DNA from: an uncultured bacterium
Lineage (GTDB): Bacteria; Patescibacteriota; Minisyncoccia; Phycocordibacterales; JAACPR01
Reading direction: 5' to 3'
DNA length: 26,616 nucleotides
Assembly: GCA_966677695.1 (NCBI GenBank)
Contig: CBKWTF010000001.1
Coordinates: forward strand, 1-26,616
Both the position numbers and the translations under genes were made by a program. Shown one piece after another: positions 11,007 to 26,332 of this stretch. Position 1 is the first letter of the stretch. Each line of letters starts with the position of its first letter. The notes below the pieces were generated by a model that worked only from the letters and a program-made list of their open reading frames with translations, did no database searches and was not told where the DNA came from.

Positions 11007-11009
11007 AGT

Positions 11010-11546: not shown

Positions 11547-11966
11547 ATGTCAGAGGATACACAGGTACAGGACGTACAGGCAGAGGAGACCGTCGAGGTT
11601 CCTGCCAAGTTCAAGTCACTCGTAGAGTCAATCGAGTCTATGTCAGTGCTTGAGCTCCACGAGCTCGTAAAGCTTCTTGAGAAGAAGTTCGGAGTGTCAG
11701 CAGTCGCAGCCGCAGCGCCAGCAGCGGGAGGGGCAGCGGACGCAGCCGAGGAGAAGTCAGACTTCACCGTCCACCTTAAGGATGCCGGAGCTTCGAAGAT
11801 CGGAGTGATCAAGGTAGTCAAGGAGGCGCTTGCTCTCGGACTTAAGGAGGCGAAGGATCTAGTCGATGCCGCTCCGTCAGACCTGAAGTCAGGTGTGAAG
11901 AAGGAGGAGGCCGAGGCGATCAAGAAGCAGCTTGAGGATGCCGGAGCAACAGTCGAGTTGAAATAA
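11547..11966 (+). CDS. rplL: 50S ribosomal protein L7/L12 (139 aa, acidic N-terminal extension)
   Basis: [21 protein letters not shown], Ala-rich hinge, [24 protein letters not shown]...[38 protein letters not shown]. Confidence 0.99.
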
Positions 11967-12030
11967 CTAGGATTTGCTTAGGATTTCGTTTCTTATGATT
12001 TGGTTCGATACGGTCAGTGGGATCAATTCA

Positions 12031-12084
12031 AACGAACTGAACTCACATGTTCGAACGAACTGACATCTAAACGAAACGAACTAG
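12031..12084 (+). repeat. Three phased direct repeats AACGAACT(GA/AG) at 12031, 12054 and 12075
   Basis: Read directly; spacing is 23 and 21 bp. They are preceded by TAGGATTT/TAGGATTT/TATGATTT at 11968, 11979 and 11994. Confidence 0.65.
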
Positions 12085-12088
12085 CTAG

Positions 12089-12124
12089 GAAAACCGTCGG
12101 ACCCATTTGGGTCCGACGGTTTTC
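12089..12124. terminator. Intrinsic terminator for rplJL
   Basis: GAAAACCGTCGGACCC-ATTT-GGGTCCGACGGTTTTC, a perfect 16-bp stem followed by GTTTTG. Confidence 0.85.
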
Positions 12125-12268
12125 GTTTTGCCGATACCTCGAAACAAGGGGGAGGTTACGAATTTGCCGCAAAACACGCCGAGGAAATGTGCTGAGAAAC
12201 GGGGCGTTGCAGTACCTTCTTGAAGGCCCTTTGAACATGAGAATTTTCACTCAAAAACACGTGTCAAG

Positions 12269-12277
12269 TTATCCACA
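12269..12277 (+). promoter_or_regulatory. Consensus DnaA box TTATCCACA
   Basis: Exact match to the TTATNCACA consensus; single copy, in an AT-rich intergenic stretch upstream of the giant gene promoter. Confidence 0.6.
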
Positions 12278-12288
12278 AAATTTCGGTA

Positions 12289-12323
12289 TATAACTTGTTA
12301 TAAAAAACAAATTGCTGCATAAT
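12289..12323 (+). promoter_or_regulatory. Putative promoter of the giant gene with an overlapping inverted-repeat operator
   Basis: TTGTTA (12295-12300), 17 bp, CATAAT (12318-12323). TATAAC-TT-GTTATA (12289-12302) overlaps the -35. Confidence 0.45.
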
Positions 12324-12338
12324 CAACGTATTGGTATG

Positions 12339-12373
12339 GGGGCTGAAACGCGTAATCGCGTTTCAGCCCCTTT
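12339..12373 (+). terminator. Strong leader hairpin (terminator/attenuator-like or 5' stabiliser) before the giant gene
   Basis: GGGGCTGAAACGCG-TAAT-CGCGTTTCAGCCCC, a perfect 14-bp stem followed by TTTGTCATTT, ending 42 bp before ATG 12413. Confidence 0.6.
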
Positions 12374-12412
12374 GTCATTTATCAAATCAACAACATTACA
12401 AACAAAACCATT

Positions 12413-15400
12413 ATGAAAAAATTACTAATCATCGGATCATCACTTGTGGCGCTGACCATCTTCGCGTTGGGCGGAAGTATTCCTGACTCAAGAAGTTCCG
12501 CATCGGTCACGGACCTGATACCCAAAAGAACCGAACCGGTATCGGACGGAATTCCGACGGAAATCCTGGCACAAAACGAGTCACCCCAAGAAGTCTCCGC
12601 ACAAACGGAGACATTCGTCGTTAATGGGGGGGCAACGACAAAGTCAGCAAGTTCCGACGAACTGGCTTTTGCGGGCTCACGTGATGTTGTTGATCACACT
12701 AACTCTTCGTCCGACTCTTCGGACTTCGTCGCTGTGGCGACGCCTGAGTCACGCGACTCGGGAGGCTCGTCTCTCAGATCTGCAGAGACCGCTGAACTTT
12801 CTGCATCTGCTCCGACACGGGTGCCGTCATACGGTCCGAACGGTACTCACTGGCCAAGCAACATTCCGACCCCGTTCATGTACGACACTACTGTGCCGAA
12901 CATCATCGAGGTTGAGCCGAACTGGACGGATCTTTCTAACGCAATCAAGAGCGTGACCGATCAGCAGGCAAACGAGGGAACGCTGATTCTCATCAAGTCC
13001 GGAACCGTAGAGAACCCGACGGTCATGAGGGGAAACGGAAACGGGTCAGGCTCTGACCCTGTGCTTGCCGAGATTGGTTCCGAAATCAGAAACAGCGAAT
13101 TTCCAAATCGGCCTCGAACGAAGCGAATCACCGTAGCGCCTTCGAACGGATACGGAACGCTGCGATGGGAGAACGGAGTGCACATCCGAAGAGTAAAGGG
13201 AGTGGCCTTTGCCGGAATTATCGCTGATCAGGGAATCAAGTCACGAGGAAACACGCAGTCTGCCTTTGCGTGGATTCTTGCGGAAAGCGGACAGACCGGT
13301 TTCTACGGTCATAAGGATCAGGATACCTACGGCATGGAAATCGTGGAGTATGTTGTTCCTGAGGCCCAGGCAAAAAGCGACGATACCGCGGACGTCTATT
13401 CTGTTGACGGAGTGGTTGAGGACTTTGACGTTGTGGGAAGCTACTTCGCTCCGCGGTTCTGGCTGTACAGCGACTGTACTCCGCAGGACTGTCCGCACAC
13501 CGATACCTTCCAGTACGCTACCGGAGGAGGGGGAAGTTACGGCGACATGTCTCTGAGCGACAGCGTATTTTTTGCATCAAACAACAGTGTAATTCAGACC
13601 GGTAACGTTATCGGTCTCGACATCGACCACTCGTTCATCGTTGGAGGAGACGAGTCGTTCAAGAGATATCCGATTACGGGAGGAAGTGACGTCTCGCGAG
13701 AGGGTAACTTCTCAGCCTTCAACGGATCCGGTCGAGGGTTCAATCTGACAAACTCATTCGTATTCGGAGAGATCAAGCTCAATAACCGAGACGCGTCGAG
13801 GGTGTGGAGTAACGTTTCAAATACCAAGATCGCCCAGCCAAGCGGAAAGTATGACGGAGGACTTAACGACCCGCTTTCCGGAGACTGGACATACGAGTCC
13901 GGCATGACGATGGCGAGTGCCGGCATTCCGGCAAAGCCGACGGAGGAGTACCTGCTTACAATCTGGGGCAAGGACATTACGCCTCGCACGGCTGCACCCG
14001 AGTTTAGCCCGAGCGGAACGAGCTTCAACGACTCAGTCACCGTCTCGCTTTCGAGCAACACGGCTGGCGCGGCCATATACTACACAACCAACGGAAGTAC
14101 CCCGACGACCTCTTCGACACGATATGCCGGACCATTTACGCTTTCTTCCTCGGCTACGGTAAAGGCAATCGCGGTATCGGCTGGTCTTGATAACAGCTTT
14201 GTGCAGTCAAAGACCTACACGATCGTACAGCCGGGTCTGCCGGTCATTACAAGGCAGCCTGCTGCCCAGTCGGCACCGGTCGGATCAAGTGCGACCTTCA
14301 CCGTCGAGGCTACCGGAAATCCAGCAGTCAGCGGATATCAGTGGAAGAAGAACGGCGCAAGCATCGCGGGCGCAACCAGCGCAAGCTACACCACGCCTGC
14401 CCTGACTTCTGCCGACAGCGGTTCCACATATACTGTCGTAGTGACGAACGCGCAGGGAAGCGTCGAGTCACAGGGCGCAGCGCTTCTTGTCGCTGACATG
14501 ACGTCTGACAGCTCATATCAGGAGCGATCAATCAGCTCGCTGTCAGGAACATTCACCTATGAGTTCAGCGTGACTCCGCTTGCGGCGAACATGAACGCCG
14601 TAACCGGACTTACGGGCAAGTCATCAGCCGTAAGCGACTATGGCGACTTCTCGATGATGATCCGAATGTACGACGGTCGATTCGACGCGCGAAACGGAGG
14701 CGCATACGGGTACAATGGCGCCCAGGAGGTTCGCTTCGAGGTAGGACGAACATACCAGGTCAAGTTCGTGGTCGACAGCTCGGCAAAGGAATATGACGTA
14801 TTTGTTGACGGCAAGCTCATCGGAGACAATTTTGATTTCCGAAATACAACCTATACAACGTTTAACAAGATCGCGTATCGAGCCGAAGTCGGATCGCATA
14901 CGATCGGACTGACAGGATCAACGGGAGGAGGGGAGGATACCCAGGCTCCGGTCGTCAATGCCGGACCGGACCAGACCATCACGCTTCCGACGAACAGCGT
15001 GACGCTCAACGCTGACGTCTCAGACAATCAGCCGGTCACGAATCTTGCAAACGTCTGGACGCGACAGAGCGGACCGGCCGCCGTTTCGTTCGGCAACGAG
15101 AACTCGATCGACACGACCGCGACATTTACGACCGCAGGAACATACGTGCTCAGGCTGACCTCAAACGACGGAGACAACACCGGATACGACGAGATTACGA
15201 TCGTCGTACGTCCGCAGGAGGGAGTGAACCAGGCTCCGGTCGTCAGCGCGGGTTCTGACGTTTCAATTACCACCGGAGGAACCGCGACACTCGACGGAAC
15301 CGTTACGGATGACGGACTTCCAGCCGGTTCAACGGTCGCCCAGACATGGAGCCGTGTGGAGGGTCCTGGAACGGTGACATTTGCCAATCCCTCCGCTCAG

Positions 15401-18400
15401 GATACGACCGCGACATTCTCTGCACCCGGTATCTACACTTTGCGCCTTACCGCAACCGACGGAACGCTGCAGGCGACTGACGACGTCGTCGTAAGCGTCG
15501 GAGGAGGAACGGGGGAGATCGTCCTTTCTGGAGAGCGAAAGCAGTGGCATAAGATTACTCTGACAATGGACGGTCCAAACACAAGCGAATCCGCATCGAC
15601 AAACCCATTCAGGGACTACCGTGTTGACGTAACCTTCACCCATCCCTCGTCAGGTACGACATATATAGTGCCCGGATATTATGCGGCTGACGGAAACGCT
15701 GCCGAATCTTCTGCGTCTGCAGGAAACAAGTGGCGCGCGCACTTTGCTCCGGACCGAACCGGAACGTGGAACTACTCAGTATCGTTCCGAACCGGATCAA
15801 ATGTCGCAATCGCAGCCAGCCGAACGGCCGGAACAAGCGCCGGATACTTTGACGGCCAGACCGGAAGTTTCTCGGTATCTGCTACCGACAAGTCAGGTAA
15901 GGACCTTCGAGGAAAGGGAAGACTCGTCTATGACGGAGAGCATTATCTTAAGTTTGCCGGAACAGGGGAGCGATTCATCAAGGCGGGAGTCGACTCACCG
16001 GAGAACCTTCTTGCCTATGAGGACTTTGACAATACGCCTCGAGTGGGTGGCGGAACGATCAAGAGCTATTCTGCCCATGCGGGAGACTATGCCTCAGGCG
16101 ATCCCGAGTGGCAGAACAACAAGGGAACCGAGCTTATCGGCGCAATCAACTACCTTTCAAGCGAGGGACTGAACGCGATATCGTTCCTGACATTCAACGT
16201 TGACGGTGACGACGGTAACGTATATCCGTTTACGGCTGAAAACGTAGAGGACCGATTCGACGTCTCAAAGCTCGACCAGTGGCAGATCGTATTCGACCAT
16301 GCGACCGCGAAGGGAATGTACCTGCACTTCAAGCTGATGGAGGCGGAGAACGACGGCAACCTGGTAACCGAGCAGTTCAAGCTGTATACCCGAGAGCTGA
16401 TCGCTCGATACGGGCACGAGCTTGCGCTCAACTGGAACTTGGGAGAGGAGAACGGACTGAGCGCTTCGATCTTGACCGATTGGGCTCAGTACCTCAAGGA
16501 TACGGATCCGTACCAGCATAACCGCGTACTTCATCTGCTCTGCGGTGACTTCGGCACATGTACAAGCAAGTACTTCGGCATGATGGGCAGCAACTCACAG
16601 CTCACCGGATTCTCACTCCAGGGAACTGACGCCTCAGATTTCCAGAATACGTTTGCACACGTGAAGGCGTTCGTTGACGAGTCAGCGGAAAGAGGAAAGA
16701 AGTGGGTGGTGGCGATGGACGAGCCGGGAGACTCATCAGCCGGAGTAAAGGCTGATACTGCAAGCAGCAACAACCAGGACATAGCGCGAAAGCACGGACT
16801 CTGGGGAACGATCATGGCCGGAGGACAGGGAGTCGAGTGGTACTTCGGATCCTCGGACGACATCGCGCTGCAGAACTTCAGGACCCGAGACAATTTCTAC
16901 GCATACAACAAGTACGCGGTCGACTTCCTGACCTCAAACGGACTTCCGGTAGCCGGACTGACGAACCAGAACTCGCTGATCAGCGGAGGAAGCGCGACGG
17001 GCAACAAGGTGCTTGCCAAGACGGGAGAAGTATATCTCGTGCAGCTTATCAACGGCGGAAACGCAACACTTAACCTGTCCGGCACGAGCGGAACGTTCAA
17101 CGTGAAGTGGCTCAACCCGCGGACAGGTGCGGTAACAACCGGTGCCAACGTGGCCGGAGGCTCCAGCGTAACCCTGAATGCGGCAGACTCAAATGACTGG
17201 GTCGTGCTGGTAAAGAGGGGAACAGGAACGGTTGATCCGGACCCGACCGGCGCATACCAGGAGAACGGAGGCGTAGTAGTCATCGAGGCAGAGAATACGG
17301 CGTCCGACCGGGAGGACGGTACCGACTTCTGGGCACTTCGAAGGCCGGGTGACTCACGATATGTCGCAAATGCGACAAACGACGCTCACCTTGAGTACCG
17401 AAGCAATACGTCGCTTGACGATACTCCGGGAGCGGTTCCTGTTACGTATACATTTAAAATTAACGAAGGAGGATATTACCAGCTGCATATCCGAGCGCAT
17501 AAGAATATTGAGGATGAGACACGGCCTGACCTGAACAATGATGCGTACATCAAGGTCAGCGGCGTAAACGGAAGCACCTACACCGCCGGTCCGAATGCGG
17601 GCAGCACGCACCTCAAGGACGCACCTCTCTCGATGCTTCAGAACTACACGAAGATTGCCGGAGGGTCAGACAGCACATGGGCATGGGCGGACCAGCTTGA
17701 CGCAGGAGGAGACAACAACAAGCGATGGCCGGTATACGGATTCCAGACCGGAGGAACCTATACGCTTACGATGTCAGGACGATCGCGAGGATTCGCGCCG
17801 GACCGATTCGTCTTCCGAAAGGTCGATGAGATTCCGATGCCGCTCGCCAAGAACTATGCGATACCAGAGTCGTCAAAGGTTGAAGGGGGTACAAATCCGA
17901 ACATTACGCCTATCACGAACGGATCAACCCAGGTGCGAACACTTGAATATGTGAATGTTCGAACCGTGCCGTCGGTAAGCGGAAATACGCCGCTTGGACG
18001 CATGCCGTTCGGATCACAGGGAACAATTATGGAAGGACCGGTCGTCTCGTCTGACAACCTGGTATGGTGGCGCGTAAACTTCGCCGCAACCTCAACTGAC
18101 GGATGGACCGGAGGCGACAACCTCGAGGTTATTCCCGGAACAGGAGGAGGGGATGAGAACCTGGCTCCTACCGTAAACGCCGGTGCCGACCAGGCCATCA
18201 CGCTTCCGACAAATTCGGTGACTCTTACGGGGACCGCTACGGATTCTGACGGAACCGTTTCGTCACGACAGTGGACAAAGGTAAGCGGAGGAACTGCCAA
18301 CCTTTCAGGAGCTACGACAAACACACTGAGCGTATCCGGTCTTGAGGAGGGGACATACGTATTCCGATTCACGGCAACCGACAATGAGGGGGCATCATCG

Positions 18401-21400: not shown

Positions 21401-24400
21401 GCGACAGACTCTGACGCTTCTGCGGTTCAGGGACTAAGCAGCGGGTCGAACTCAATCAAGCGAGTGACATATGCCGGGTCATATCTTGCACCTAAGTTCG
21501 TGACGGGAAGCGGACATACTGACACGCTTCAGTTTGCGACCGGAAACTACCAGGATCAGGTAGGCTCAAGCATCGTCGATACCGCGCTCTTCGGATCAAG
21601 CAACGCGACGCTCCAGGTAGGAAGTACAAACGGTCTCAAGATCGACCACTCGTTCCTTGTCGCCGGTGAGACATCGCTCTCACGATACCCGGTTCTTCCC
21701 GGGGGAGACGGGCCGGTAGAGGTAGTGTTCAACGGAGGTTCGACCGGAATGACGGCATACGATTCAATCTTTGTCGGAGGAATGGGAGCGCCGAAGTGGA
21801 CCGAGGTTCGAAACACTCGAACGGCTAAGGCAGGCAATACCCCATCACAAGGTGAGTGGACCGTAGACCCGAGCCTTTACGATATGAGGGACGATGCGGC
21901 AGGATACAAGAATCTCGTACCGTATCCTACTGACGCGTATCTTGCGCAGATCTGGGCAAAGGACGGAAATCCCGTTACATACCGAACCCTTACGATTAAC
22001 AAGACAGGATCAGGATCGGTAACAGGAGCGACATCAGGGGAGTCGTTCATGGACGGATCGAGCGTGATTCTTACTGCGGTGCCCGCAACAGGAGCGACAT
22101 TCACAGGATGGAGCGGGGCATGTACCGGAACGAACGCGACGTGTACGGTAGTCATGTCGGCAGACAAAACCGTTTCCGCATCGTTCTCTGCGGTTGCGAA
22201 TCCCGAGTATGCCATCACTATCGCAAAGACCGGAACAGGAACGGGAACGGTTTCAGGCGCTACGTCTGGACAGCAGTTCACATCAGGAACCGTCGTGACA
22301 CTGACAGCGACTCCTGCAAGCGGATCTACGTTCGCGGGATGGAGCGGGTCATGTGCGGGAACCAACGCGACATGTGCCGTGACTATGGATGCGGCTAAGT
22401 CCGTGACGGCAACATTCAACATCGCCACGGTCGCACAGTACACCCTGACAGTCTCAAAGAGCGGAACGGGAACAGGAACTGTATCTGGAAGCGCAGCCTC
22501 ACAGGCGTACAACTCGGGAACTGTGGTTACCCTTACGGCAACTCCAGACGCTTCATCAAACTTCACAGGATGGAGCGGGGCATGTACCGGAACGAACGCG
22601 ACGTGTCAGGTCACAATGAGCTCGAACAAGACGGTGACAGCAACGTTCGCAGCAAAGCCGGCAGACCAGGTCGCTACGCCGACATTCTCACCGACTTCGA
22701 CTTCGTCTGCGGACCCGATTACGGTGACGATCAGTTCGGCGACAACAGGCGCGACAATCCGATACACAACTAACGGAAGCACGCCTACGACAAGTTCGGC
22801 TCAGTACACAGGACCGATCACCGTCTCTTCATCACAGACAATCAAGGCGATCGCTACAAAGTCAGGAATGACAAACAGCGCCGTAGGGGAGGCGACATAT
22901 GCGATCGTTCCTGTCACGGGCGGAGCGGGTCCGTTCACCTCAAGCCTCAGCTGGCTGAACAAGTCCTTCCTTGAGCTGTCCGGAACAGCGAACCGAACCG
23001 GAATCTTCACGGTAACGTTCAACGCAACTCCGCTGGACAACGACATCGACGTCGTGACCGCGCTTACGGACGGAGCGGCTGACGGATTCAACGATCTTGC
23101 GGCAACGATCCGATTCAACAAGCTCGACCCTTCATACATCGATACGGTAAACGGGGGATCATACGATGTCGATGATGAGATCGTGTACGAGGAGGACGAA
23201 ACATATCCTGTTCGAATGGTCGTCGACGTTCCGAACCGACATTACTCCGTATGGGTAACGGTAAATGGGGTTGAGAGGCAGATTGCTCGAGATTACGCAT
23301 TCCGAACGGGAAGTGGCGTAACCCAGGTATCAAAGCTTACCAACTTCTCTATCCGAGCGGTTACCGGAACGCACCGAATTACGAACGTGGTGATCGGTCA
23401 GGACGGAGGATCGTCTGACACACAGGCTCCGAGCACGCCAGTCGGATTGTCGTCATCGAACGTCACAAGCTCATCGGCGACTGTCTCATGGAACGCGTCA
23501 AGCGATAACGTCGGCGTAACAGGATACGAGGTGCTGCGGGGAACAAGTGCCGGCAACTTGTCGACGGTCACGACCGTTACAGGAACCTCGTTCGTAGATA
23601 GTGCACTGTCTGCCAATACGACATACTACTACGCTGTGAAGGCAAAGGATGCTGCAGGCAATGTGTCAGCCGCGTCAAATGCGCTTACTGTCCGAACCAA
23701 CAACGTTGCGGACATTCAGGCGCCTACTGTGCCTACAAACGCGCAGACATCTCGAGAGTCAACAACGAGCGTCCTTATAGAGTGGACCTCGTCGAGCGAT
23801 AACGTGGGAGTGTCGTACTACAACATCTACCGAGACGGATCCGTCGTGGCTACAAGTCCGTACCCTGCATACGAGGACTCAGGACTGACACCGAATACCA
23901 CATATGTATACCGGGTTTCCGCAGTTGACGGAGCCCAGAACGAATCCGGGCTGTCCTCAGCGGTAAGCACGCGGACACTAAGCGATGTCGACGACATTGC
24001 GCCTGAGATCCGATCGTTCTCTGTGCCTTCGACCTCAAATTCCCTTACTGTCGCTGTCAACTCATTTGCGGCAAGCGACAACGGAGAAACGGTAGAGTAC
24101 TACATCACGGAGAGCGAAGCGGTTCCTTCGGGACCATCCGTTGCGTGGTCATACGCCGCGCCGACAAGCTATACGATCAAGAGTGGTATCGGAAGCGGAA
24201 CGTATACGCTTTATGCATGGGCACGTGATGCGGCGGGAAATATCTCAACACCGCGAATTGCCACAGTTGTCGTGACGCTTCCGGATACGATCCTTCCAGA
24301 GGTGGTCATCACGGCTCCCGCAGCAAACTCACTGGTATCAGGAACGTCGGTTGCGATTAGCGCGACCGCCACTGACAACGTCAGGGTGGCTTCGGTCCAG

Positions 24401-26332
24401 TTCCGGGTAGACAATACCGTCATCGCGAATGATACGGCGGCACCGTATGCAGCGACATTCAACGCGTCTGCTCTTGCAAGCGGAGCGCATACGATCTACG
24501 CAATCGCTCGAGATGCGGCCGGAAACGTCCGAACCGCATCGGTCTCGGTAATCGTGGGAACAACACAGCCGGTCGACAGTGACCAGGACGGGGTGCCTGA
24601 CCTGGTTGACCGATGTCCGAATACTCCTGAGCAGTTCCGAAACAACGTGAACCGATACGGATGTCCGAAGCCGAAGGCCAATAACTTCGACCTCACGACA
24701 AACTTCGATGATGTTGATCTTGCCGCCGTGCAGAACCTGCAGATCGGTATCAGCAACATTGGAAAAATCGAGTATTCGAACCAGACAATTAACCTGGTAC
24801 AAAGCAACGGAAGCTCTCAGTTCGACATCGATACCCATGTGGACATCGATCCGGGAAGGGTATCTGTCGACTCGTCACGAGCTCCGCAGCTCAACAAGCC
24901 TGCGACGATCACGCTCTACAACATCACTACGCCAAACCCTGTGATCATGAGAGACGGTCAGGTGTGTACGAACTGTACGATTGTGTCACACGTGAACGGA
25001 GTGCTTGTCTTCACGGTGCAGGGATTCTCGACATATACCGTAGTGGGTGACTCACAGGCGCCTACGGTGCCGGGAGGACTGTCGTCTTCCGACGTAACCT
25101 CTTCGCGCATAACGCTCTCGTGGAACGCGTCAACCGACAACGTCGGCGTGACTGCGTACGAGGTGTACCGTGACTCGACCCTTGTCACAACGACAAGCCT
25201 GCGAACGTATACGGATAGCAACCTGTCGCCCGATACGTCCTACACCTATACTGTCAGGGCGAAGGATGCGGCAGGAAATCGGTCTTCTGCATCAGCGGAC
25301 CACACCGTAAGGACCGACAAGAGCTCATCAGGCTCAGGAGGAAGCTCGGGCGGAGGAGGCGGAGGATCGTCTTCGAAGGGGATCAAGGTTTCGTGTACGA
25401 TTTCGGACACCAGCATCGCTCCGGGAAGTGTCATTACGATCGGAGCAATCGTGTCAGGAGGAAAGTCTCCGTATACGTATTCTTGGACAAAGGATGCCTC
25501 TGACATCTCAGGGTTCAATCGAACGGCTCAGAACCAGTCGGTACGAATGAGCGAGAAGGGATCGTACAGCCTGTCGGTAAAGGTTACGGATGCGGACAAG
25601 AGGTCGAAAACTGACAGCTGTTCTCGAATTACGGTAAGCGAGAGGTATAACACCACTTCCGGTTCAACAGGATCTATGGGCTCAACCGGGTCGACTGGAT
25701 CGACCGGAAGCACCGGTTCATCTGGCTCAGTCGGAGGAACTGCATATGCCTTCTACCGGGACCTGACCATCGGGTCGACCGGTGAAGACGTACGACAGCT
25801 GCAGAGGTTCCTGAACGCTCAAGGATTCACTGTCTCGGTATCCGGGGCGGGATCAGTAGGAAACGAGAGCTCCTACTTCGGTCCTGCTACAACCGCGGCG
25901 CTTGCGCGGTACCAGGCGGCAAACGCCATCAGTCCTGCGGTGGGATACTTCGGTCCTCTGACCCGAACGCGGGCAAACGGAGGGACAACCGTGTCTGCGC
26001 CTTCTGTGGCGACGCCGTCGGTAACGCCTCCAGTCGTGACGACTCCGGTAGTTACCGCGCCGTCTACGGGAACAACATCCGTCTACCTGGGCAAGAATCT
26101 TGCTCCGGGCGTGACTGATGCGGATGTTCTCATCCTGCAGAAGTTCCTTAACAAGTACGGATTTACTGTTGCGGTTTCAGGATCAGGGGCTCCTGGAAAC
26201 GAGAGTACGTACTATGGTGAGCTGACTAAGCAGGCGGTAAAGCGGTTCCAGGCCTCGAAGGGACTTCCGTCTGACGGATGGACCTACGAGCGAACCAGAG
26301 CGGCAATCAATGCCGCAGGAGCGTCGATTTAG
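12413..26332 (+). CDS. Giant (4639 aa) secreted multidomain glycan-active surface protein / adhesin with C-terminal peptidoglycan-binding domains
   Basis: A single uninterrupted ORF with the N-terminal signal/anchor MKKLLIIGSSLVALTIFALG and about 30 recognisable modules. These are 3 beta-helix-like domains, DUF5060+TIM barrel+collagen-bind-like, a CBM-like module, 2 lectin-like, 2 SH3b, 3 PKD/REJ, 5 chitinase-type FN3, 2 Fn3-associated, 4 InlB-B/Flg_new-like, Ig-like domains, a TSP3 motif and 2 PG_binding_1. Confidence 0.93.
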   Translation: MKKLLIIGSSLVALTIFALGGSIPDSRSSASVTDLIPKRTEPVSDGIPTEILAQNESPQEVSAQTETFVVNGGATTKSASSDELAFAGSRDVVDHTNSSSDSSDFVAVATPESRDSGGSSLRSAETAELSASAPTRVPSYGPNGTHWPSNIPTPFMYDTTVPNIIEVEPNWTDLSNAIKSVTDQQANEGTLILIKSGTVENPTVMRGNGNGSGSDPVLAEIGSEIRNSEFPNRPRTKRITVAPSNGYGTLRWENGVHIRRVKGVAFAGIIADQGIKSRGNTQSAFAWILAESGQTGFYGHKDQDTYGMEIVEYVVPEAQAKSDDTADVYSVDGVVEDFDVVGSYFAPRFWLYSDCTPQDCPHTDTFQYATGGGGSYGDMSLSDSVFFASNNSVIQTGNVIGLDIDHSFIVGGDESFKRYPITGGSDVSREGNFSAFNGSGRGFNLTNSFVFGEIKLNNRDASRVWSNVSNTKIAQPSGKYDGGLNDPLSGDWTYESGMTMASAGIPAKPTEEYLLTIWGKDITPRTAAPEFSPSGTSFNDSVTVSLSSNTAGAAIYYTTNGSTPTTSSTRYAGPFTLSSSATVKAIAVSAGLDNSFVQSKTYTIVQPGLPVITRQPAAQSAPVGSSATFTVEATGNPAVSGYQWKKNGASIAGATSASYTTPALTSADSGSTYTVVVTNAQGSVESQGAALLVADMTSDSSYQERSISSLSGTFTYEFSVTPLAANMNAVTGLTGKSSAVSDYGDFSMMIRMYDGRFDARNGGAYGYNGAQEVRFEVGRTYQVKFVVDSSAKEYDVFVDGKLIGDNFDFRNTTYTTFNKIAYRAEVGSHTIGLTGSTGGGEDTQAPVVNAGPDQTITLPTNSVTLNADVSDNQPVTNLANVWTRQSGPAAVSFGNENSIDTTATFTTAGTYVLRLTSNDGDNTGYDEITIVVRPQEGVNQAPVVSAGSDVSITTGGTATLDGTVTDDGLPAGSTVAQTWSRVEGPGTVTFANPSAQDTTATFSAPGIYTLRLTATDGTLQATDDVVVSVGGGTGEIVLSGERKQWHKITLTMDGPNTSESASTNPFRDYRVDVTFTHPSSGTTYIVPGYYAADGNAAESSASAGNKWRAHFAPDRTGTWNYSVSFRTGSNVAIAASRTAGTSAGYFDGQTGSFSVSATDKSGKDLRGKGRLVYDGEHYLKFAGTGERFIKAGVDSPENLLAYEDFDNTPRVGGGTIKSYSAHAGDYASGDPEWQNNKGTELIGAINYLSSEGLNAISFLTFNVDGDDGNVYPFTAENVEDRFDVSKLDQWQIVFDHATAKGMYLHFKLMEAENDGNLVTEQFKLYTRELIARYGHELALNWNLGEENGLSASILTDWAQYLKDTDPYQHNRVLHLLCGDFGTCTSKYFGMMGSNSQLTGFSLQGTDASDFQNTFAHVKAFVDESAERGKKWVVAMDEPGDSSAGVKADTASSNNQDIARKHGLWGTIMAGGQGVEWYFGSSDDIALQNFRTRDNFYAYNKYAVDFLTSNGLPVAGLTNQNSLISGGSATGNKVLAKTGEVYLVQLINGGNATLNLSGTSGTFNVKWLNPRTGAVTTGANVAGGSSVTLNAADSNDWVVLVKRGTGTVDPDPTGAYQENGGVVVIEAENTASDREDGTDFWALRRPGDSRYVANATNDAHLEYRSNTSLDDTPGAVPVTYTFKINEGGYYQLHIRAHKNIEDETRPDLNNDAYIKVSGVNGSTYTAGPNAGSTHLKDAPLSMLQNYTKIAGGSDSTWAWADQLDAGGDNNKRWPVYGFQTGGTYTLTMSGRSRGFAPDRFVFRKVDEIPMPLAKNYAIPESSKVEGGTNPNITPITNGSTQVRTLEYVNVRTVPSVSGNTPLGRMPFGSQGTIMEGPVVSSDNLVWWRVNFAATSTDGWTGGDNLEVIPGTGGGDENLAPTVNAGADQAITLPTNSVTLTGTATDSDGTVSSRQWTKVSGGTANLSGATTNTLSVSGLEEGTYVFRFTATDNEGASSSDEMTVTVSRQVAVGSAVYVRAGAAGNGSSWTNALGSIPPSASLERGMTYYIADGSYGSYLFDKAKDGTKLVTFKKATVADHGTNEGWQSSYGDGQAVFTSFKIDGTGYFTLDGNIGSDKFAEKGILISSQSRQTAFRIDDSDYVTIEGIEVDANYDDRISCNVAEVIGQDISDGGYNTTNITIKKSHFRNGGDDGLVLYNVKDLIFEDNEISDLFGYNIEAHPTDGCGNGHSDGIEIKTVTNAVFNRNYFHSIDKTSAFLPSNWTSNYGTASSDAEERNITVTNNIFHTPNASGAVYVQHMKDAKFFHNTISQGQYSGVIMETKGDYKIVENFDIANNIISAFAIKDEVGNSQLDIDYNLLIGPEVHSFNPHVPSTNDINLGWEMNKAFPANLYAGSDVNAHYVPGKGHPNWGPEASAFTPAATNPGINKGKTGLPTSVTIGGVTVDISKDFFGNSRSGAPDMGAIEFSGSSQANRLVAVTVFGAGDVTGNGISCGADCSEVYSSGESVTLTATPRPNATFAGWSGACAGTGTCTVTVSDFKNVIATFNGGIDPDAWQVGDRVEATKTVRVRSGAGTGFATVIPDQNEGAQGTVTGGPASGSGLTWYKIKYDGYTTEGWTGADGLVRLSGGGEPDSTAPTVPGNLSEVSVTNTSASISWTASTDAVGVTGYEILRNGSVVGNSNTNSYTLTGLAKGTTYTITVKAFDAAGNKSAASAALTVTTSDSVDSIAPSVPAGLTKGTVTNTSASISWTASTDNVEVTGYDIYRDGALVGSSAGTSYSESGLAKATTYSYTVKAKDAAGNVSAPSAILSVTTTNIESKIPVRVKSFGPNGTHWPDKIDTPFMYDDTVTSIVINPSWTELQAALDSVTKAQADAGLRILIKPGTMAGKGITGGSQKMIADTGSAAWDQRVVVAPRDGYGTVTWTGGVRIENVEGVAFAGLKVEEPGIRFKGNNRSALAWINISGGNATPTQLLVGASNEKSVADVEIVEVVMRDSEATDSDASAVQGLSSGSNSIKRVTYAGSYLAPKFVTGSGHTDTLQFATGNYQDQVGSSIVDTALFGSSNATLQVGSTNGLKIDHSFLVAGETSLSRYPVLPGGDGPVEVVFNGGSTGMTAYDSIFVGGMGAPKWTEVRNTRTAKAGNTPSQGEWTVDPSLYDMRDDAAGYKNLVPYPTDAYLAQIWAKDGNPVTYRTLTINKTGSGSVTGATSGESFMDGSSVILTAVPATGATFTGWSGACTGTNATCTVVMSADKTVSASFSAVANPEYAITIAKTGTGTGTVSGATSGQQFTSGTVVTLTATPASGSTFAGWSGSCAGTNATCAVTMDAAKSVTATFNIATVAQYTLTVSKSGTGTGTVSGSAASQAYNSGTVVTLTATPDASSNFTGWSGACTGTNATCQVTMSSNKTVTATFAAKPADQVATPTFSPTSTSSADPITVTISSATTGATIRYTTNGSTPTTSSAQYTGPITVSSSQTIKAIATKSGMTNSAVGEATYAIVPVTGGAGPFTSSLSWLNKSFLELSGTANRTGIFTVTFNATPLDNDIDVVTALTDGAADGFNDLAATIRFNKLDPSYIDTVNGGSYDVDDEIVYEEDETYPVRMVVDVPNRHYSVWVTVNGVERQIARDYAFRTGSGVTQVSKLTNFSIRAVTGTHRITNVVIGQDGGSSDTQAPSTPVGLSSSNVTSSSATVSWNASSDNVGVTGYEVLRGTSAGNLSTVTTVTGTSFVDSALSANTTYYYAVKAKDAAGNVSAASNALTVRTNNVADIQAPTVPTNAQTSRESTTSVLIEWTSSSDNVGVSYYNIYRDGSVVATSPYPAYEDSGLTPNTTYVYRVSAVDGAQNESGLSSAVSTRTLSDVDDIAPEIRSFSVPSTSNSLTVAVNSFAASDNGETVEYYITESEAVPSGPSVAWSYAAPTSYTIKSGIGSGTYTLYAWARDAAGNISTPRIATVVVTLPDTILPEVVITAPAANSLVSGTSVAISATATDNVRVASVQFRVDNTVIANDTAAPYAATFNASALASGAHTIYAIARDAAGNVRTASVSVIVGTTQPVDSDQDGVPDLVDRCPNTPEQFRNNVNRYGCPKPKANNFDLTTNFDDVDLAAVQNLQIGISNIGKIEYSNQTINLVQSNGSSQFDIDTHVDIDPGRVSVDSSRAPQLNKPATITLYNITTPNPVIMRDGQVCTNCTIVSHVNGVLVFTVQGFSTYTVVGDSQAPTVPGGLSSSDVTSSRITLSWNASTDNVGVTAYEVYRDSTLVTTTSLRTYTDSNLSPDTSYTYTVRAKDAAGNRSSASADHTVRTDKSSSGSGGSSGGGGGGSSSKGIKVSCTISDTSIAPGSVITIGAIVSGGKSPYTYSWTKDASDISGFNRTAQNQSVRMSEKGSYSLSVKVTDADKRSKTDSCSRITVSERYNTTSGSTGSMGSTGSTGSTGSTGSSGSVGGTAYAFYRDLTIGSTGEDVRQLQRFLNAQGFTVSVSGAGSVGNESSYFGPATTAALARYQAANAISPAVGYFGPLTRTRANGGTTVSAPSVATPSVTPPVVTTPVVTAPSTGTTSVYLGKNLAPGVTDADVLILQKFLNKYGFTVAVSGSGAPGNESTYYGELTKQAVKRFQASKGLPSDGWTYERTRAAINAAGASI
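12818..13975 (+). other. Unassigned ~386-aa domain, copy 1 (predicted right-handed beta-helix, lyase-like)
   Basis: RVPSYGPNGTHWP...APSNGYGTLRW...VKGVAFAGI...SYFAPRF...PHTDTFQY...IDHSFIVGG...IWGKD; colinear with copy 2. Confidence 0.6.
15512..17218 (+). other. DUF5060 + clan GH-A-like (beta/alpha)8 glycoside hydrolase (DUF4038/GH140-like architecture) + collagen-binding-2-like beta domain
   Basis: GERKQWHKITLTMDGP...NPFRDYRVDVTFTHP...GYYAADG...WRAHFAPDRTGTWNY; RFDVSKLDQWQIVFDHA; NWNLGEEN (16433-16453); WVVAMDEPG (16715-16729); LWGTIMAGGQGVEWYFG; WLNPRTG...DWVVLVKR. Confidence 0.7.
17924..20284 (+). other. Two bacterial SH3-like domains (17924-18130 and 20072-20284)
   Basis: VNVRTVPS...G...GTIMEGP...WWRVNF...GWTGGDNL and VRVRSGAGT...GTVTGGP...WYKIKY...GWTGADGL fit the SH3b pattern. 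Confidence 0.7.
18452..19807 (+). other. Right-handed parallel beta-helix (pectin-lyase-like) domain with C-terminal PDMGAIE motif
   Basis: YVRAGAAGNGSSWTNA start; repeats TNITIKKSHF, KDLIFEDNEI, NAVFNRNYF, NITVTNNIF, AKFFHNTI, DIANNII; GHSDGIE; end DFFGNSRSGAPDMGAIEF. Confidence 0.8.
20879..21964 (+). other. Unassigned ~362-aa domain, copy 2
   Basis: RVKSFGPNGTHWP...APRDGYGTVTW...VEGVAFAGL...SYLAPKF...GHTDTLQF...IDHSFLVAG...IWAKD; 20 nt identical to copy 1 (12836-12855 vs 20897-20916). Confidence 0.6.
21980..22648 (+). repeat. Three tandem InlB-B/Flg_new-like repeats (a fourth copy at 19832-20047)
   Basis: Y.LT..K.G.G.G.V.G......G..V.LTA.P..G..F.GWSGAC.GT...C.V.M...K.V.A.F; copies at 22100-22144 and 22562-22606 share 45 identical nt. 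Confidence 0.85.
25751..26314 (+). other. Two peptidoglycan-binding (PG_binding_1-like) domains, 25751-25978 and 26087-26314
   Basis: RDLTIGSTGEDVRQLQRFLN.QGF...GNESSYFGPATTAALARYQ...GYFGPLTR and KNL.PG....DV..LQKFLN.YGF...GNESTYYGELTKQAVKRFQ. Confidence 0.9.

What the first reader, a model, noticed from the sequence alone, without database searches (positions are those of the whole stretch)
12413..26332. A single-chain, cellulosome-like glycan-attack protein of 4639 aa in a metabolically minimal bacterium
Seen: signal peptide, then at least four candidate catalytic units (two unassigned beta-helix-like domains, one GH-A-like barrel, one pectin-lyase-like beta-helix). These alternate with carbohydrate-binding-like modules, SH3b domains and rigid FN3/PKD/Ig/InlB spacers and end in two peptidoglycan-binding domains. 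Established: these spacer types separate catalytic and binding modules in secreted CAZymes, and PG_binding_1 and SH3b bind cell wall. Inference: a surface-tethered multi-enzyme arm that either anchors on its own wall and digests host capsule, EPS or S-layer glycan to reach the host surface, or grips host peptidoglycan directly. Together with the neighbouring fibre this suggests a two-part recognise-and-penetrate host-interaction kit. Most described CPR giant proteins are viewed as adhesins, so this many putative enzymes in one chain is notable.
Basis: partly seen in the sequence, partly recalled or inferred. Interest (0 to 1): 0.82.

Follow-up and report, generated by a model that had tools for sequence, protein, structure and literature searches.

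The report
Giant four-enzyme-like surface protein, CPR bacterium
A tiny-genome soil bacterium (Paceibacterota) encodes one real 4,639-residue exported protein with four enzyme-like sugar-polymer domains, at least three of them apparently acquired from other bacteria, so it is more likely a polysaccharide-cutting tool than a plain adhesin.

Summary
The ORF is real: 12413-26332 (+), 4639 aa, with one N-terminal hydrophobic signal and no other membrane segment. Four candidate catalytic modules are confirmed at fold level.

- **Domain A, two copies (135-530 and 2824-3225).** A rare, unnamed right-handed beta-helix family (AF2 pLDDT 94; Z 22 to PL9, PL6 and tailspikes). Both copies keep every family-conserved polar residue, including the HTDTxQ motif.
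- **DUF5060 cassette (1036-1605).** A DUF5060, (beta/alpha)8 barrel and Collagen_bind_2 unit with a clan GH-A-like fold (Z 30). The family-invariant E1346 and E1437 are present.
- **Beta-helix B (2005-2470).** A third beta-helix of another uncharacterised family.

Spacers (PKD, FN3, Ig, InlB-B, CHB_HEX_C) and two C-terminal PG_binding_1 domains are confirmed. The SH3b domains have only weak support. There is no cohesin or dockerin, so "cellulosome-like" is only an analogy.

Domain A was not found in 400 other Patescibacteria genomes. It nests inside Verrucomicrobiota sequences, which there sit in exopolysaccharide-synthesis loci. The barrel is 51-55% identical to Verrucomicrobiota proteins. 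Only one same-genus species has an orthologue (3821 aa, same site after rplL). That orthologue lacks the peptidoglycan-binding tail and has an unrelated module in place of beta-helix B.

The most likely function is a wall-tethered set of glycan-degrading enzymes acting on foreign bacterial exopolysaccharide. Activity and substrate are untested. The "two-part kit" with the neighbouring fibre is not supported. This scan has already reported similar but smaller CPR mosaic glycan-enzyme proteins on other genomes.

The parts
12094..12125 (+). rplL terminator hairpin followed by a T-run. It separates the giant gene from the ribosomal genes.
   Evidence: Read directly in the sequence: GAAAACCGTCGGACCC-ATTT-GGGTCCGACGGTTTTC followed by GTTTT.
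12295..12371 (+). Promoter-like hexamers (12295-12323), then a hairpin with a 15-bp stem (12338-12371) in the leader, 41 nt before the ATG. No clear Shine-Dalgarno sequence.
   Evidence: (consensus scan; the hit count is not above the shuffle expectation).
12413..12487 (+). Signal peptide or signal anchor (aa 1-25, MKKLLIIGSSLVALTIFALGG).
   Evidence: The only hydrophobic 19-mer region in the protein.
12488..12814 (+). Ser/Ala/Glu/Thr-rich low-complexity linker (aa 26-134).
   Evidence: Translation. No family hit.
12815..14002 (+). Domain A, copy 1 (aa 135-530). Right-handed beta-helix of an unnamed family. Conserved E309, E312, D324, H362-T-D364-x-x-Q367, D383, R418.
   Evidence: 144 representatives in 1.84 billion proteins. 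No Pfam, NCBIfam or PDB sequence hit. AF2 pLDDT 94. Z 22.1 to Pel9A with a flat list of PL/GH/tailspike matches. Conservation.
14009..14470 (+). CHB_HEX_C_1/Fn3_assoc domain (aa 533-602) and Ig_3 domain (aa 610-686).
   Evidence: Pfam.
14510..14947 (+). LamG/sialidase-CBM-like beta-sandwich, copy 1 (aa ~700-845). Weak assignment.
   Evidence: Pfam Sialidase-like_CBM, 21 bits, below the cut-off. 32% identical to copy 2.
14960..15517 (+). Two K319L-like PKD domains (aa ~850-1035).
   Evidence: Pfam. Matched to the PKD domains of Verrucomicrobiota DUF5060 proteins.
15518..17227 (+). DUF5060 Ig domain, (beta/alpha)8 barrel and Collagen_bind_2 beta-sandwich (aa 1036-1605). Candidate acid/base E1346 (NWNLGEE) and nucleophile E1437 (AMDEPG).
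   Evidence: Pfam. More than 5200 homologues at 50-55% identity. Invariant residues. AF2 pLDDT 80. Z 30.5 to 4n0r, 29.6 to ManDH5 (GH5), 25 to GH140. HMM alignment to the NE motif of 4n0r.
17330..17902 (+). GH115_C-like, CBM-like beta-sandwich (aa ~1640-1830).
   Evidence: Language-model look-alikes at 0.92 to GH115_C clusters. Homologous DUF5060 proteins carry PF17829 at the same place. Pfam on this copy gave no hit in the 1640-1840 segment; the only GH115_C signal, E=0.1, lies at aa ~1615-1695, mostly upstream of this part.
17924..18127 (+). SH3-like domain 1 (aa ~1838-1905). Weak assignment.
   Evidence: 34% identical to SH3-like domain 2. No Pfam hit.
18179..18424 (+). K319L-like PKD domain 3 (aa 1923-2004).
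   Evidence: Pfam (best-scoring stretch).
18425..19822 (+). Beta-helix B (aa 2005-2470). Uncharacterised right-handed beta-helix family. N-cap YVRxGAxGxG..W.NA, then KKATxxDHGTxxGW, and C-cap DxxGxxR..GAxE.
   Evidence: Pfam Beta_helix, 48.6 bits. 157 homologues. Conservation. Atlas look-alikes.
19844..20278 (+). InlB B-repeat 1 (aa ~2478-2548) and SH3-like domain 2 (aa ~2557-2622).
   Evidence: Pfam Flg_new_2. SH3_3 at E=0.013, below the cut-off.
20306..20878 (+). Two FN3 domains (aa ~2632-2822).
   Evidence: Pfam fn3.
20882..22087 (+). Domain A, copy 2 (aa 2824-3225). Conserved E2986, E2989, D3001, H3035-T-D3037-x-x-Q3040, D3056, R3091.
   Evidence: 36% identical to copy 1. All family-conserved residues kept. 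Forms one clade with copy 1.
22088..23617 (+). Three InlB B-repeats (aa 3226-3475), CHB_HEX_C_1 copy 2 (aa ~3480-3555), and LamG/CBM-like copy 2 (aa ~3560-3735).
   Evidence: Pfam. Internal duplication.
23645..24562 (+). Two FN3 domains (aa ~3745-3940) and Big_7/Big_13 Ig domains (aa ~3941-4050).
   Evidence: Pfam.
24566..25057 (+). TSP_3 calcium-binding repeat (aa 4055-4074) and a Nup98-S59-like beta-sandwich (aa ~4090-4215). The sandwich ends in GFSTY rather than HFS.
   Evidence: Pfam Nucleoporin2, 31.7 bits against a cut-off of 28.4, covering profile positions 14-94 of 148. Motif position.
25070..25741 (+). FN3 domain 5, a Gly/Ser run, a PKD-like domain, and an (STG)n linker (aa ~4220-4443).
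   Evidence: Pfam. Sequence.
25742..26329 (+). Two PG_binding_1 domains (aa ~4444-4520 and ~4563-4639).
   Evidence: Pfam, 85 bits on the segment, two stretches. Genome search found matches at 25778-25966 and 26117-26305.

Best explanation
The gene encodes one exported modular protein of a soil Paceibacterota (CPR) bacterium. After Sec export, the two C-terminal PG_binding_1 domains most likely hold it non-covalently on the cell's own peptidoglycan. The long chain of Ig, FN3, PKD and InlB-B spacers projects four glycan-active modules outward. Each module is paired with beta-sandwich binding-type modules.

The four modules are two copies of a new beta-helix family (domain A), a DUF5060-family clan-GH-A-like barrel that is probably a retaining glycosidase using E1346 and E1437, and a second type of beta-helix (B).

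Together they would cut a complex heteropolysaccharide. The most likely target is the exopolysaccharide or capsule of neighbouring or host bacteria, either to expose the host surface or to release sugars.

Domain A and the barrel were acquired horizontally. Domain A nests among Verrucomicrobiota genes, which in that phylum lie inside EPS-synthesis clusters. It was then duplicated inside the gene.

Shown here: the ORF, the domain folds, residue conservation, phylogeny, distribution and genomic contexts. Inferred: enzymatic activity, depolymerase rather than modifying chemistry, substrate, own-wall tethering and host-directed use.
For: **The ORF is real.**
- ORF and export signal.
- Same-genus rplL is 85-91% identical, so the contig belongs to this lineage.
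- An orthologue (3821 aa, 61% identity, colinear) sits at the same rplL-tuf site in independent assemblies.
- Contigs from four soil runs of four studies tile the gene at 95-99% identity or better, with no alternative joints.
- No long DNA repeats: at most 86% identity over 50 nt.

**Domain A.**
- pLDDT 94 beta-helix. The best structural matches (Z 18-22) are predominantly polysaccharide lyases, hydrolases, epimerases and phage depolymerases.
- Invariant D324, D364 and Q367, and near-invariant E312, H362 and D383, are kept in both copies.
- In Luteolibacter and an Akkermansiaceae-like MAG, a [domain A + 2x CHB_HEX_C] protein lies among Bac_transf, GT2, GT4 and acyltransferase genes.
- In Paenibacillus and Magnetospirillum it lies with CBMs, a sugar-binding protein, LacI and an MFS transporter. 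In a Bdellovibrionota MAG it is adjacent to a DUF5060-barrel protein.

**Barrel.**
- Three-domain fold, Z 30 to BVU_0362 and the GH5 mannanase ManDH5, Z 25 to GH140.
- NWNLGEE and DEPG are invariant in 20 of 20 sequences and lie at the ends of strands 4 and 7.
- E1346 aligns to the Glu of the N-E motif of 4n0r.

**Horizontal origin.**
- Domain A was found in 0 of 400 other Patescibacteria genomes. A barrel match (partial, cut at a contig end) was found in 1 of 400.
- Domain A was found in only 1 of 40 close relatives.
- In the tree, A1+A2 form one clade (99/91), sister to Bdellovibrionota (96/92), then to Verrucomicrobiaceae (98/93).

**Anchoring.** PG_binding_1 is the recurrent wall module of this genome, with 10 matches.
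Against: - No activity, substrate or expression data exist.
- The beta-helix fold also occurs in adhesins (PfbA, Z 18.4) and in NosD.
- Domain A has no invariant Lys. Its location in EPS-synthesis loci fits a polymer-modifying enzyme (AlgG/AlgE-type epimerase) as well as a depolymerase.
- The catalytic Glu assignment in the barrel rests on an HMM alignment and predicted strand ends, not on a superposition.
- Beta-helix B was not folded, and its central part is poorly conserved.
- The orthologue lacks the PG-binding tail and beta-helix B, so neither is essential to the core design.
- G000 has its own priming sugar transferase, so a self-directed role is not excluded.
- No single read or contig spans the 14-kb gene.
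Confidence: 0.5

Rival explanations
1. Nutrient scavenging. The same multi-enzyme protein degrades free environmental polysaccharide (soil microbial or plant glycans, necromass) to feed a fermentative cell with few biosynthetic pathways. It has no specific role in host contact.
For: Relatives of domain A in Paenibacillus and Magnetospirillum lie in catabolic-looking loci with a sugar-binding protein, LacI and an MFS transporter. The organism is widespread in soil and rhizosphere runs. Large multi-catalytic CAZymes of free-living degraders are built the same way (general knowledge).
Against: The closest donor-side context is EPS biosynthesis, not catabolism. The gene's domain A was found in only 2 of 8 species of the genus and in none of 400 other phylum members searched, which is odd for a core feeding function. 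Sugar uptake capacity of G000 was not examined here.
Confidence: 0.2
2. Self-directed glycan processing. As in the donor EPS loci, the beta-helix modules trim, epimerise or release the bacterium's own surface polysaccharide or S-layer glycan.
For: Domain A homologues in Verrucomicrobiota lie inside EPS-synthesis clusters, like AlgG, AlgL or PslG in known systems (general knowledge). The top Foldseek matches by E-value are mannuronan C-5 epimerases. G000 has a Bac_transf priming transferase.
Against: The gene is not next to any glycosyltransferase. It lies between rplL and the contig end, and in the orthologue before tuf. Four different catalytic-type modules plus many binding modules is excessive for processing one self polymer. 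Six of seven congeners searched lack domain A.
Confidence: 0.12
3. Pure adhesin. The beta-helices and the barrel have lost catalysis and act as lectin-like binding modules of a giant adhesin, the usual reading of CPR giant proteins.
For: Beta-helix adhesins exist (PfbA, Z 18.4). The protein is dominated by Ig, FN3, PKD and InlB-B modules typical of adhesins. CPR surface proteins with lectin, pectin-lyase and FN3 domains are generally discussed as attachment factors (PMC5220378).
Against: Every family-conserved polar residue is retained in both domain A copies after an old duplication (36% identity). The barrel's invariant Glu pair and about 120 other invariant positions are retained at 51-55% identity to stand-alone relatives of the same uncharacterised family.
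Confidence: 0.13
4. Assembly artefact. The ORF is a chimeric fusion of several genes from a fragmented MAG.
For: The MAG has 91 contigs. No single Logan contig spans the gene, and three single-contig loose ends were seen in one run.
Against: The independent orthologue is colinear over aa 1-2005, 2557-3412 and 3509-3664 at the same locus in two assemblies. Four runs from four studies tile the full length with no joints. There are no near-identical internal repeats. GC content is even along the gene.
Confidence: 0.03

Closest known systems
CPR/Patescibacteria exported mosaic surface proteins with lectin, pectin-lyase-fold and FN3 domains (Castelle et al. 2017, PMC5220378), and similar proteins reported earlier in this scan (e1-1281957, e1-4470598, e1-1125631)
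   Same: Small-genome host. N-terminal signal. Chains of FN3/Ig/PKD spacers. Beta-helix and GH-A-like modules. A peptidoglycan-binding tail. Strain-specific distribution.
   Different: About 2.5 times longer than the 1858-aa example. It has four catalytic-type modules in one chain, two of them from a family with no name. Here a horizontal origin is shown for domain A by a tree and inferred for the barrel from identity and distribution.
DUF5060 domain-containing proteins of Verrucomicrobiota and Planctomycetota (e.g. Luteolibacter, Haloferula). Structural relatives: BVU_0362 (PDB 4n0r), the GH5 mannanase ManDH5 (9gpe), and GH140 apiosidases (5msy, 8t9w)
   Same: 51-55% identity over about 580 aa. 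The flanking PKD and GH115_C-like modules are the same. Same three-domain fold, with Glu at the ends of strands 4 and 7.
   Different: No member of the DUF5060 sequence family was found to be characterised. Identity to solved structures is 15-19%. The canonical Asn before the acid/base Glu is a Glu (G-E-E) in this family. Here the cassette is embedded in the middle of a giant protein.
Right-handed beta-helix polysaccharide enzymes: PL9 Pel9A (1ru4), PL6 alginate and chondroitin lyases, mannuronan C-5 epimerases AlgE4/AlgE6/AlgG, GH28, GH138, and phage tailspike depolymerases
   Same: Fold (Z 18-22, 250-290 residues aligned). A row of conserved acidic and His residues. Occurrence in EPS loci, like AlgG. 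Use by a cell that attacks others, like tailspikes.
   Different: No sequence-family membership: no Pfam, NCBIfam or PDB hit. The match list is flat, so no family stands out. There is no invariant Lys of the PL9/PL6 type. The HTDTxQ motif did not match any Pfam, NCBIfam or PDB sequence profile.
Multi-catalytic modular CAZymes and cellulosomes
   Same: Several catalytic modules plus CBM-type modules and Ig/FN3 linkers act as one extracellular unit.
   Different: No cohesin, dockerin or scaffoldin. The modules are covalently linked in a single chain. None of the catalytic modules belongs to a defined cellulase or hemicellulase family.
Giant proteins of predatory Omnitrophota implicated in cell-wall degradation (bioRxiv 10.1101/2023.11.21.568195)
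   Same: Very large exported proteins of ultrasmall or predatory bacteria that combine enzyme-like and binding domains.
   Different: Those are at least 30,000 aa with other domain sets. This one is 4,639 aa with glycanase-type modules.

Membership tests
Clan GH-A retaining glycoside hydrolases | (beta/alpha)8 barrel fold | tested here: met
   AF2 model pLDDT 80, pTM 0.83. Z 30.5 to 4n0r, 29.6 to the GH5 enzyme ManDH5, 22-25 to GH140 and GH5.
Clan GH-A retaining glycoside hydrolases | Acid/base Glu at the end of strand 4 (N-E motif) and nucleophile Glu at the end of strand 7 | tested here: inconclusive
   E1345/E1346 follow predicted strand 310-316 and E1437 follows strand 403-407 of the segment. 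Both are invariant in 20 of 20 sequences. E1346 aligns to the Glu of the N-E motif in 4n0r, while the Asn position is Glu1345. No 3D superposition of catalytic residues was possible.
CAZy GH5 or GH140 (sequence families) | Significant match to the family profile (Pfam Cellulase PF00150 or DUF4038 PF13204) | tested here: not met
   Pfam at E<=1 reports only DUF5060 and Collagen_bind_2 for aa 1030-1640. phmmer against PDB gave nothing. The profile search hit only 4n0r, at E 6e-4.
Pectin-lyase-like right-handed beta-helix superfamily (domain A) | Right-handed parallel beta-helix fold | tested here: met
   pLDDT 94, pTM 0.93. Z 22.1 to Pel9A, and 360 chains with Z>=8.
Defined beta-helix enzyme families (PL1, PL3, PL6, PL9, GH28, GH55, GH87, AlgG/AlgE) | Family sequence profile and family catalytic motif | tested here: not met
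   No Pfam or NCBIfam hit for aa 1-535 or 135-530. No PDB sequence hit with the family profile. The family's own motif is HTDTxQ plus E, D and D.
Pfam Beta_helix (PF13229), beta-helix B | Score above the gathering cut-off | tested here: met
   48.6 bits against 25.9 when aa 2000-2500 is scanned alone. Catalytic status is unknown.
Cellulosome | Cohesin-dockerin pairs and a scaffoldin | tested here: not met
   No cohesin or dockerin family in any Pfam scan of the protein.
PG_binding_1 (PF01471) wall-binding modules | Score above the gathering cut-off, two copies | tested here: met
   85 bits, two stretches. The genome search also finds both. Binding itself is not testable here.
SH3b (SH3_3, PF08239) | Score above the gathering cut-off | tested here: inconclusive
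   16.1 bits against 27 for aa 2565-2617, and no hit for aa 1830-1925. The two copies are related to each other. The orthologue carries a precomputed PF08239 hit.
Nup98/Nup96 S59 autopeptidase | Full domain with the His-Phe-Ser cleavage motif | tested here: not met
   The Pfam hit (31.7 bits) covers only profile positions 14-94 of 148. The matching C-terminal strand reads Q-G-F-S-T-Y, with Gly in place of His.
CPR mosaic surface proteins | Patescibacteria genome, signal peptide, and FN3/lectin/beta-helix modules | tested here: met
   658-kb genome at 96% completeness. The same-genus MAG is labelled Candidatus Paceibacterota. Domains.

The most novel reading that the evidence does not exclude
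An epibiotic CPR lineage captured glycan enzymes that Verrucomicrobiota use in their own exopolysaccharide loci. Domain A, with its HTDTxQ motif, would be a new CAZy-type family. The lineage duplicated it and fused it with the other modules into a cell-borne counterpart of a phage tailspike depolymerase, aimed at the donor's capsule. A Bdellovibrionota lineage carries the sister copy, whether by the same or a separate transfer. If so, the gene would name the host group of a soil Paceibacterota, and 'borrowed EPS enzymes' could become a general way to predict CPR hosts.
Probability: 0.2. Interest if true: 0.75.

Novelty: new variant of a known kind. Interest (0 to 1): 0.52.

Why it matters
The hosts of almost all soil Paceibacterota, and how these bacteria make contact with them, are unknown.

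This protein offers concrete, expressible modules with retained candidate active sites. It also has a traceable origin, Verrucomicrobiota EPS-locus enzymes, which gives a testable guess at the target polymer and the partner organism.

It also defines a rare, unnamed beta-helix family (about 144 representatives at 50% clustering). Members occur in EPS-synthesis loci, in sugar-utilisation loci, next to a DUF5060 barrel in a Bdellovibrionota MAG, and twice in this CPR protein. That family is a candidate for a new polysaccharide lyase, hydrolase or epimerase family.

The general kind, CPR mosaic surface proteins with pectin-lyase-fold and FN3 domains, is already known. The advance is therefore one of degree and of testability, not of category.

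Tried and rejected
- **Cellulosome reading.** No cohesin or dockerin was found, so it was rejected as anything more than an analogy.
- **Two-part kit with the upstream S74-chaperone fibre.** The fibre has only partial, weak relatives in all five congeners tested. Domain A was found in only one of seven same-genus genomes searched. Six genes separate the two, five of them ribosomal-protein or EF-G genes. Rejected as unsupported.
- **NCBIfam 'exoglucanase CbhB' hit** (374 bits against a cut-off of 1950). It comes from the FN3 repeats only and was rejected.
- **Nup98-like autopeptidase.** The match is partial and the His of HFS is replaced. Not an autoprotease by this test.
- **General linkage of domain A and the DUF5060 barrel.** In four Verrucomicrobiota genomes the barrel paralogues are not next to domain A. 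They are adjacent only in the Bdellovibrionota MAG.
- **Alignment A2 as a query for the search for related loci.** It failed because no block was conserved enough. It was repeated with the closer set A3.
- **Literature on DUF5060 and ManDH5.** Nothing useful was found.
- **The orthologue's replacement module (P0122 aa 1985-2400).** No Pfam, NCBIfam or PDB match. It remains unidentified.
- **Runs labelled 'metatranscriptomic' (X8, X12).** They are flagged as probably DNA, so no expression claim is made.


Full report
**1. The observation**

The ORF listing gives one ORF, 12413..26332 on the + strand, with an ATG start and 4639 aa (translation).

The window is the whole of contig C1, the longest contig of a 657,675-bp assembly. 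The assembly has 91 contigs, 54% GC, 96% completeness and 1.2% contamination. GC is even along the gene, at 0.49-0.57.

The gene follows rpsL, rpsG, fusA, a 117-aa ORF, rplJ and rplL. A hairpin terminator after rplL (12094-12125) separates it from them. An AT-rich leader follows, with promoter-like hexamers and a hairpin with a 15-bp stem (12338-12371) 41 nt before the ATG.

Only residues 1-25 are hydrophobic. There is no LPXTG motif. The composition is rich in Thr, Ser, Gly and Ala, as in exported mosaic proteins.

**2. Whether the ORF is a chimera**

- Internal DNA repeats reach at most 86% identity over 50 nt.
- Twenty public soil and rhizosphere runs hold a 4-kb probe from the middle of the gene (window 17500-21500).
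- Contigs from four runs of four different studies tile the full length at 95-99% identity or better, with no alternative joints. No single contig spans the gene, and three single-contig loose ends appeared in one run.
- One orthologue exists (P0122, 3821 aa). It is colinear at 61-62% identity over aa 1-2005 and 2557-3412, and at 42% over aa 3509-3664. It lies at the same place, after rplJ-rplL and before tuf and the S10 operon, in an NCBI MAG and in an ENA assembly.

I put mis-assembly at about 3%.

**3. The organism**

- The orthologue's contig is titled 'MAG: Candidatus Paceibacterota bacterium isolate GFS_3417'.
- That genome is a same-genus relative of G000.
- The rplL of this contig is 85-91% identical to same-genus genomes.
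- All 40 relatives have genomes of 0.5-1.1 Mb.

'Metabolically minimal CPR bacterium' therefore holds.

**4. Anatomy**

Coordinates come and Pfam hits. In order along the chain:

| aa | Module |
|---|---|
| 1-25 | Signal |
| 26-134 | Low-complexity linker |
| 135-530 | Domain A, copy 1 |
| 533-686 | CHB_HEX_C, Ig |
| ~700-845 | LamG/sialidase-CBM-like sandwich (weak) |
| ~850-1035 | Two PKD |
| 1036-1605 | DUF5060, barrel, Collagen_bind_2 |
| ~1640-1830 | GH115_C-like sandwich |
| ~1838-1905 | SH3-like (weak) |
| 1923-2004 | PKD |
| 2005-2470 | Beta-helix B |
| ~2478-2622 | InlB-B, SH3-like (SH3_3 E=0.013) |
| ~2632-2822 | Two FN3 |
| 2824-3225 | Domain A, copy 2 |
| 3226-3735 | Three InlB-B, CHB_HEX_C, LamG-like |
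| ~3745-4050 | Two FN3, Big_7 Ig |
| 4055-4215 | TSP_3 repeat, Nup98-like sandwich |
| ~4220-4443 | FN3, PKD-like, Gly/Ser linkers |
| 4444-4639 | Two PG_binding_1 |

The block [A, CHB_HEX_C, LamG-like] is duplicated inside the protein. Identity between the copies is 36% for A, 59% for CHB_HEX_C and 32% for LamG-like.

**5. Domain A**

- It has no Pfam, NCBIfam or PDB sequence match.
- An exhaustive search of 1.84 billion cluster representatives finds only 144 relatives.
- With a 47-sequence alignment, AlphaFold2 gives pLDDT 94 and pTM 0.93. The model is a right-handed beta-helix.
- Foldseek's best E-values go to the mannuronan C-5 epimerases AlgE6 and AlgE4, tailspikes, GH87 and chondroitinase B.
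- VIA-align gives Z 22.1 to Pel9A. Below that is a flat list (Z 18-22) of PL6, PL31-type and GH138 enzymes, rhamnogalacturonan lyase, RbmB and tailspikes. The list also includes the adhesin PfbA and NosD. The fold is therefore certain, but the family is new.
- Invariant columns are P243, D324, D364 and Q367. Near-invariant columns are E312, H362 and D383. E309 and R418 are conserved in 83-89% of sequences. Both copies keep all of them. Retention of a polar cluster after an old duplication argues for a functional site.

**6. Contexts and origin of domain A**

Named genomes carrying it are Verrucomicrobiota, Paenibacillaceae, one Bdellovibrionota MAG, Magnetospirillum and many Microbacteriaceae.

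- In Luteolibacter sp. Populi and in an Akkermansiaceae-like MAG, a [domain A + 2x CHB_HEX_C] protein has the same pairing as here. It sits among a Bac_transf priming transferase, GT2s, GT4/GT1, and (in Luteolibacter) a hexapeptide transferase and an Acyl_transf_3. That is an EPS-synthesis cluster.
- In Paenibacillus it is fused to an F5/8-type-C module. It lies next to a CBM96 protein, a histidine kinase and a sugar-binding protein.
- In Magnetospirillum it lies between a LacI regulator and an MFS transporter.
- In the Bdellovibrionota MAG it is adjacent to an FN3x3, DUF5060, barrel, Collagen_bind_2 protein.

A maximum-likelihood tree of 75 sequences groups the four Paceibacterota copies together (99/91). 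They are sister to the Bdellovibrionota copy (96/92), and then to Verrucomicrobiaceae (98/93). All of this sits inside a clade dominated by Verrucomicrobiota, with Actinomycetota forming the other half. The root is at the midpoint.

Domain A was found in none of 400 evenly drawn Patescibacteria genomes and in only 1 of 40 close relatives. This fits one horizontal acquisition followed by intragenic duplication before the two species split.

**7. The barrel cassette**

- More than 5,200 homologues exist. The best are 50-55% identical. The named ones are 'DUF5060 domain-containing proteins' of Luteolibacter, Haloferula, Pirellulales and similar taxa. Many carry the same flanking PKD and GH115_C modules.
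- The AF2 model (pLDDT 80) has an N-terminal Ig, a (beta/alpha)8 barrel and a C-terminal sandwich.
- VIA-align gives Z 30.5 to BVU_0362 (4n0r), 29.6 to the GH5 beta-mannanase ManDH5 over all three domains, 24-25 to GH140 apiosidases, and then GH5, GH1 and GH2.
- NWNLGEE (1340-1346) and DEPG (1436-1439) are invariant in 20 of 20 sequences. They lie at the ends of the fourth and seventh barrel strands.
- In the profile alignment to 4n0r, E1346 matches the Glu of the N-E motif, and the Asn position is E1345.

This is what a retaining clan GH-A glycosidase looks like. No profile match to GH5 or GH140 exists, and I found no characterised member of the DUF5060 sequence family. A barrel match was found in only 1 of 400 other Patescibacteria genomes, a partial match cut off at a contig end.

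**8. Beta-helix B**

Pfam Beta_helix scores 48.6 bits on the segment. There are 157 homologues from many phyla, including Patescibacteria. The N-cap (YVRxGAxGxG..W.NA, then KKATxxDHGTxxGW) and the C-cap (DxxGxxR..GAxE) are strongly conserved, but the middle is divergent. It was not folded and its function is open.

In the orthologue this position holds an unrelated module of about 400 aa with no match anywhere. This indicates cassette exchange.

**9. Anchoring**

The two PG_binding_1 domains are solid. The family gives 10 matches in this 658-kb genome. That suggests it is this organism's general wall-docking module, so tethering to the cell's own wall is the simpler reading. The orthologue ends at the second LamG-like module and lacks the last 970 aa or so, so tethering is a species-level addition.

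**10. The locus**

The rplL-tuf interval varies within the genus:

| Genome | Content of the rplL-tuf interval |
|---|---|
| G000 | 4639-aa protein (tuf lies beyond the contig end) |
| G003 | 3821-aa orthologue |
| G001 | Unrelated 1199-aa protein with no Pfam hit |
| G005 | No large gene (one 143-aa reverse ORF in a ~1.2-kb interval) |
| G013 (another genus) | Three PG_binding_1 proteins |

The upstream S74-chaperone fibre has only weak, partial relatives in all five congeners tested. It is not co-distributed with this gene.

**11. Interpretation**

The most likely function (about 0.5) is a wall-tethered, outward-projecting set of glycan-degrading enzymes acting on foreign bacterial exopolysaccharide or capsule. 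It was built from horizontally acquired enzyme cassettes.

| Rival | Probability |
|---|---|
| General polysaccharide scavenging | 0.2 |
| Adhesin with dead enzymes | 0.13 |
| Processing of the cell's own surface glycan, including epimerase-type chemistry | 0.12 |
| Assembly chimera | 0.03 |

Activity, substrate and expression are all untested.

**12. Novelty**

CPR surface proteins with lectin, pectin-lyase-fold and FN3 domains are described in the literature (PMC5220378). Giant enzyme-bearing proteins are known in Omnitrophota. This scan has already reported smaller CPR beta-helix, GH-A barrel and PG-binding proteins on other genomes.

What is new here is the number of catalytic-type modules in one chain, the unnamed HTDTxQ beta-helix family, and the demonstrable horizontal origin, which suggests a target. 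I class it as a new variant of a known kind, with interest about 0.5.

Noticed in passing
window 12338-12371: A perfect hairpin with a 15-bp stem (10 G-C pairs) and a 4-nt loop, then TTGTCATTTA. It lies in the leader 41 nt before the giant gene's ATG, downstream of promoter-like hexamers. No Shine-Dalgarno sequence is visible.
   Followed up: partly
window 11967-12412, and loci L074, L075, L077: The interval between rplL and tuf is a variable slot for surface and wall proteins in this family. It holds a 4639-aa protein (G000), a 3821-aa protein (G003), an unrelated 1199-aa protein with no Pfam hit (G001), no large gene (G005), or three PG_binding_1 proteins (G013).
   Followed up: partly
window 7021-11966: Unusual gene order: rpsL, rpsG, fusA, a 117-aa ORF with no family hit, rplJ, rplL, then the giant gene, and (in the orthologue) tuf and the S10 operon. 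rplJ-rplL and the variable slot thus sit between fusA and tuf of the str operon.
   Followed up: no
window 24566-25057 (aa 4052-4215): A TSP_3 calcium-binding repeat with a Cys pair, followed by a beta-sandwich that passes the Pfam cut-off for the Nup98/96 S59 autopeptidase (31.7 against 28.4 bits). The match covers only the first two thirds of the profile. The domain ends in GFSTY instead of HFS, so it is probably not self-cleaving.
   Followed up: partly
P0122 aa 1985-2400 (L001, about 7066-8313): At the position of beta-helix B, the orthologue carries an unrelated module of about 400 aa with no Pfam, NCBIfam or PDB match. This is cassette exchange between two species of one genus.
   Followed up: partly
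L018 4957-11541 (Bdellovibrionota MAG DATLIP010000099.1): A domain A protein (723 aa) lies directly upstream of a 1437-aa FN3x3, DUF5060, barrel, Collagen_bind_2 protein. The same two enzyme families that are fused in the CPR protein are neighbours in a Bdellovibrionota MAG, a phylum known for predatory members.
   Followed up: partly
L024/L025 (Magnetospirillum sp. MAG) versus L022/L023 (Oleiharenicola lentus): The two domain A copies of the 'Magnetospirillum' MAG are almost identical to those of an Opitutaceae isolate (tree branch lengths 0.06-0.09). This indicates either very recent transfer or a mis-binned or mislabelled contig.
   Followed up: no
G000 genome (contigs C5, C20, C23, C36, C45, C47 and the window): PG_binding_1 gives 10 matches in at least seven ORFs of a 658-kb genome. 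It appears to be the standard wall-docking module of this organism's exoproteins.
   Followed up: partly
window 1-7002: The upstream ORF of at least 2333 aa (open at the contig start) has a Peptidase_S74 chaperone domain at aa 1973-2036 that is not C-terminal. No other Pfam hit was found over 2333 aa.
   Followed up: partly
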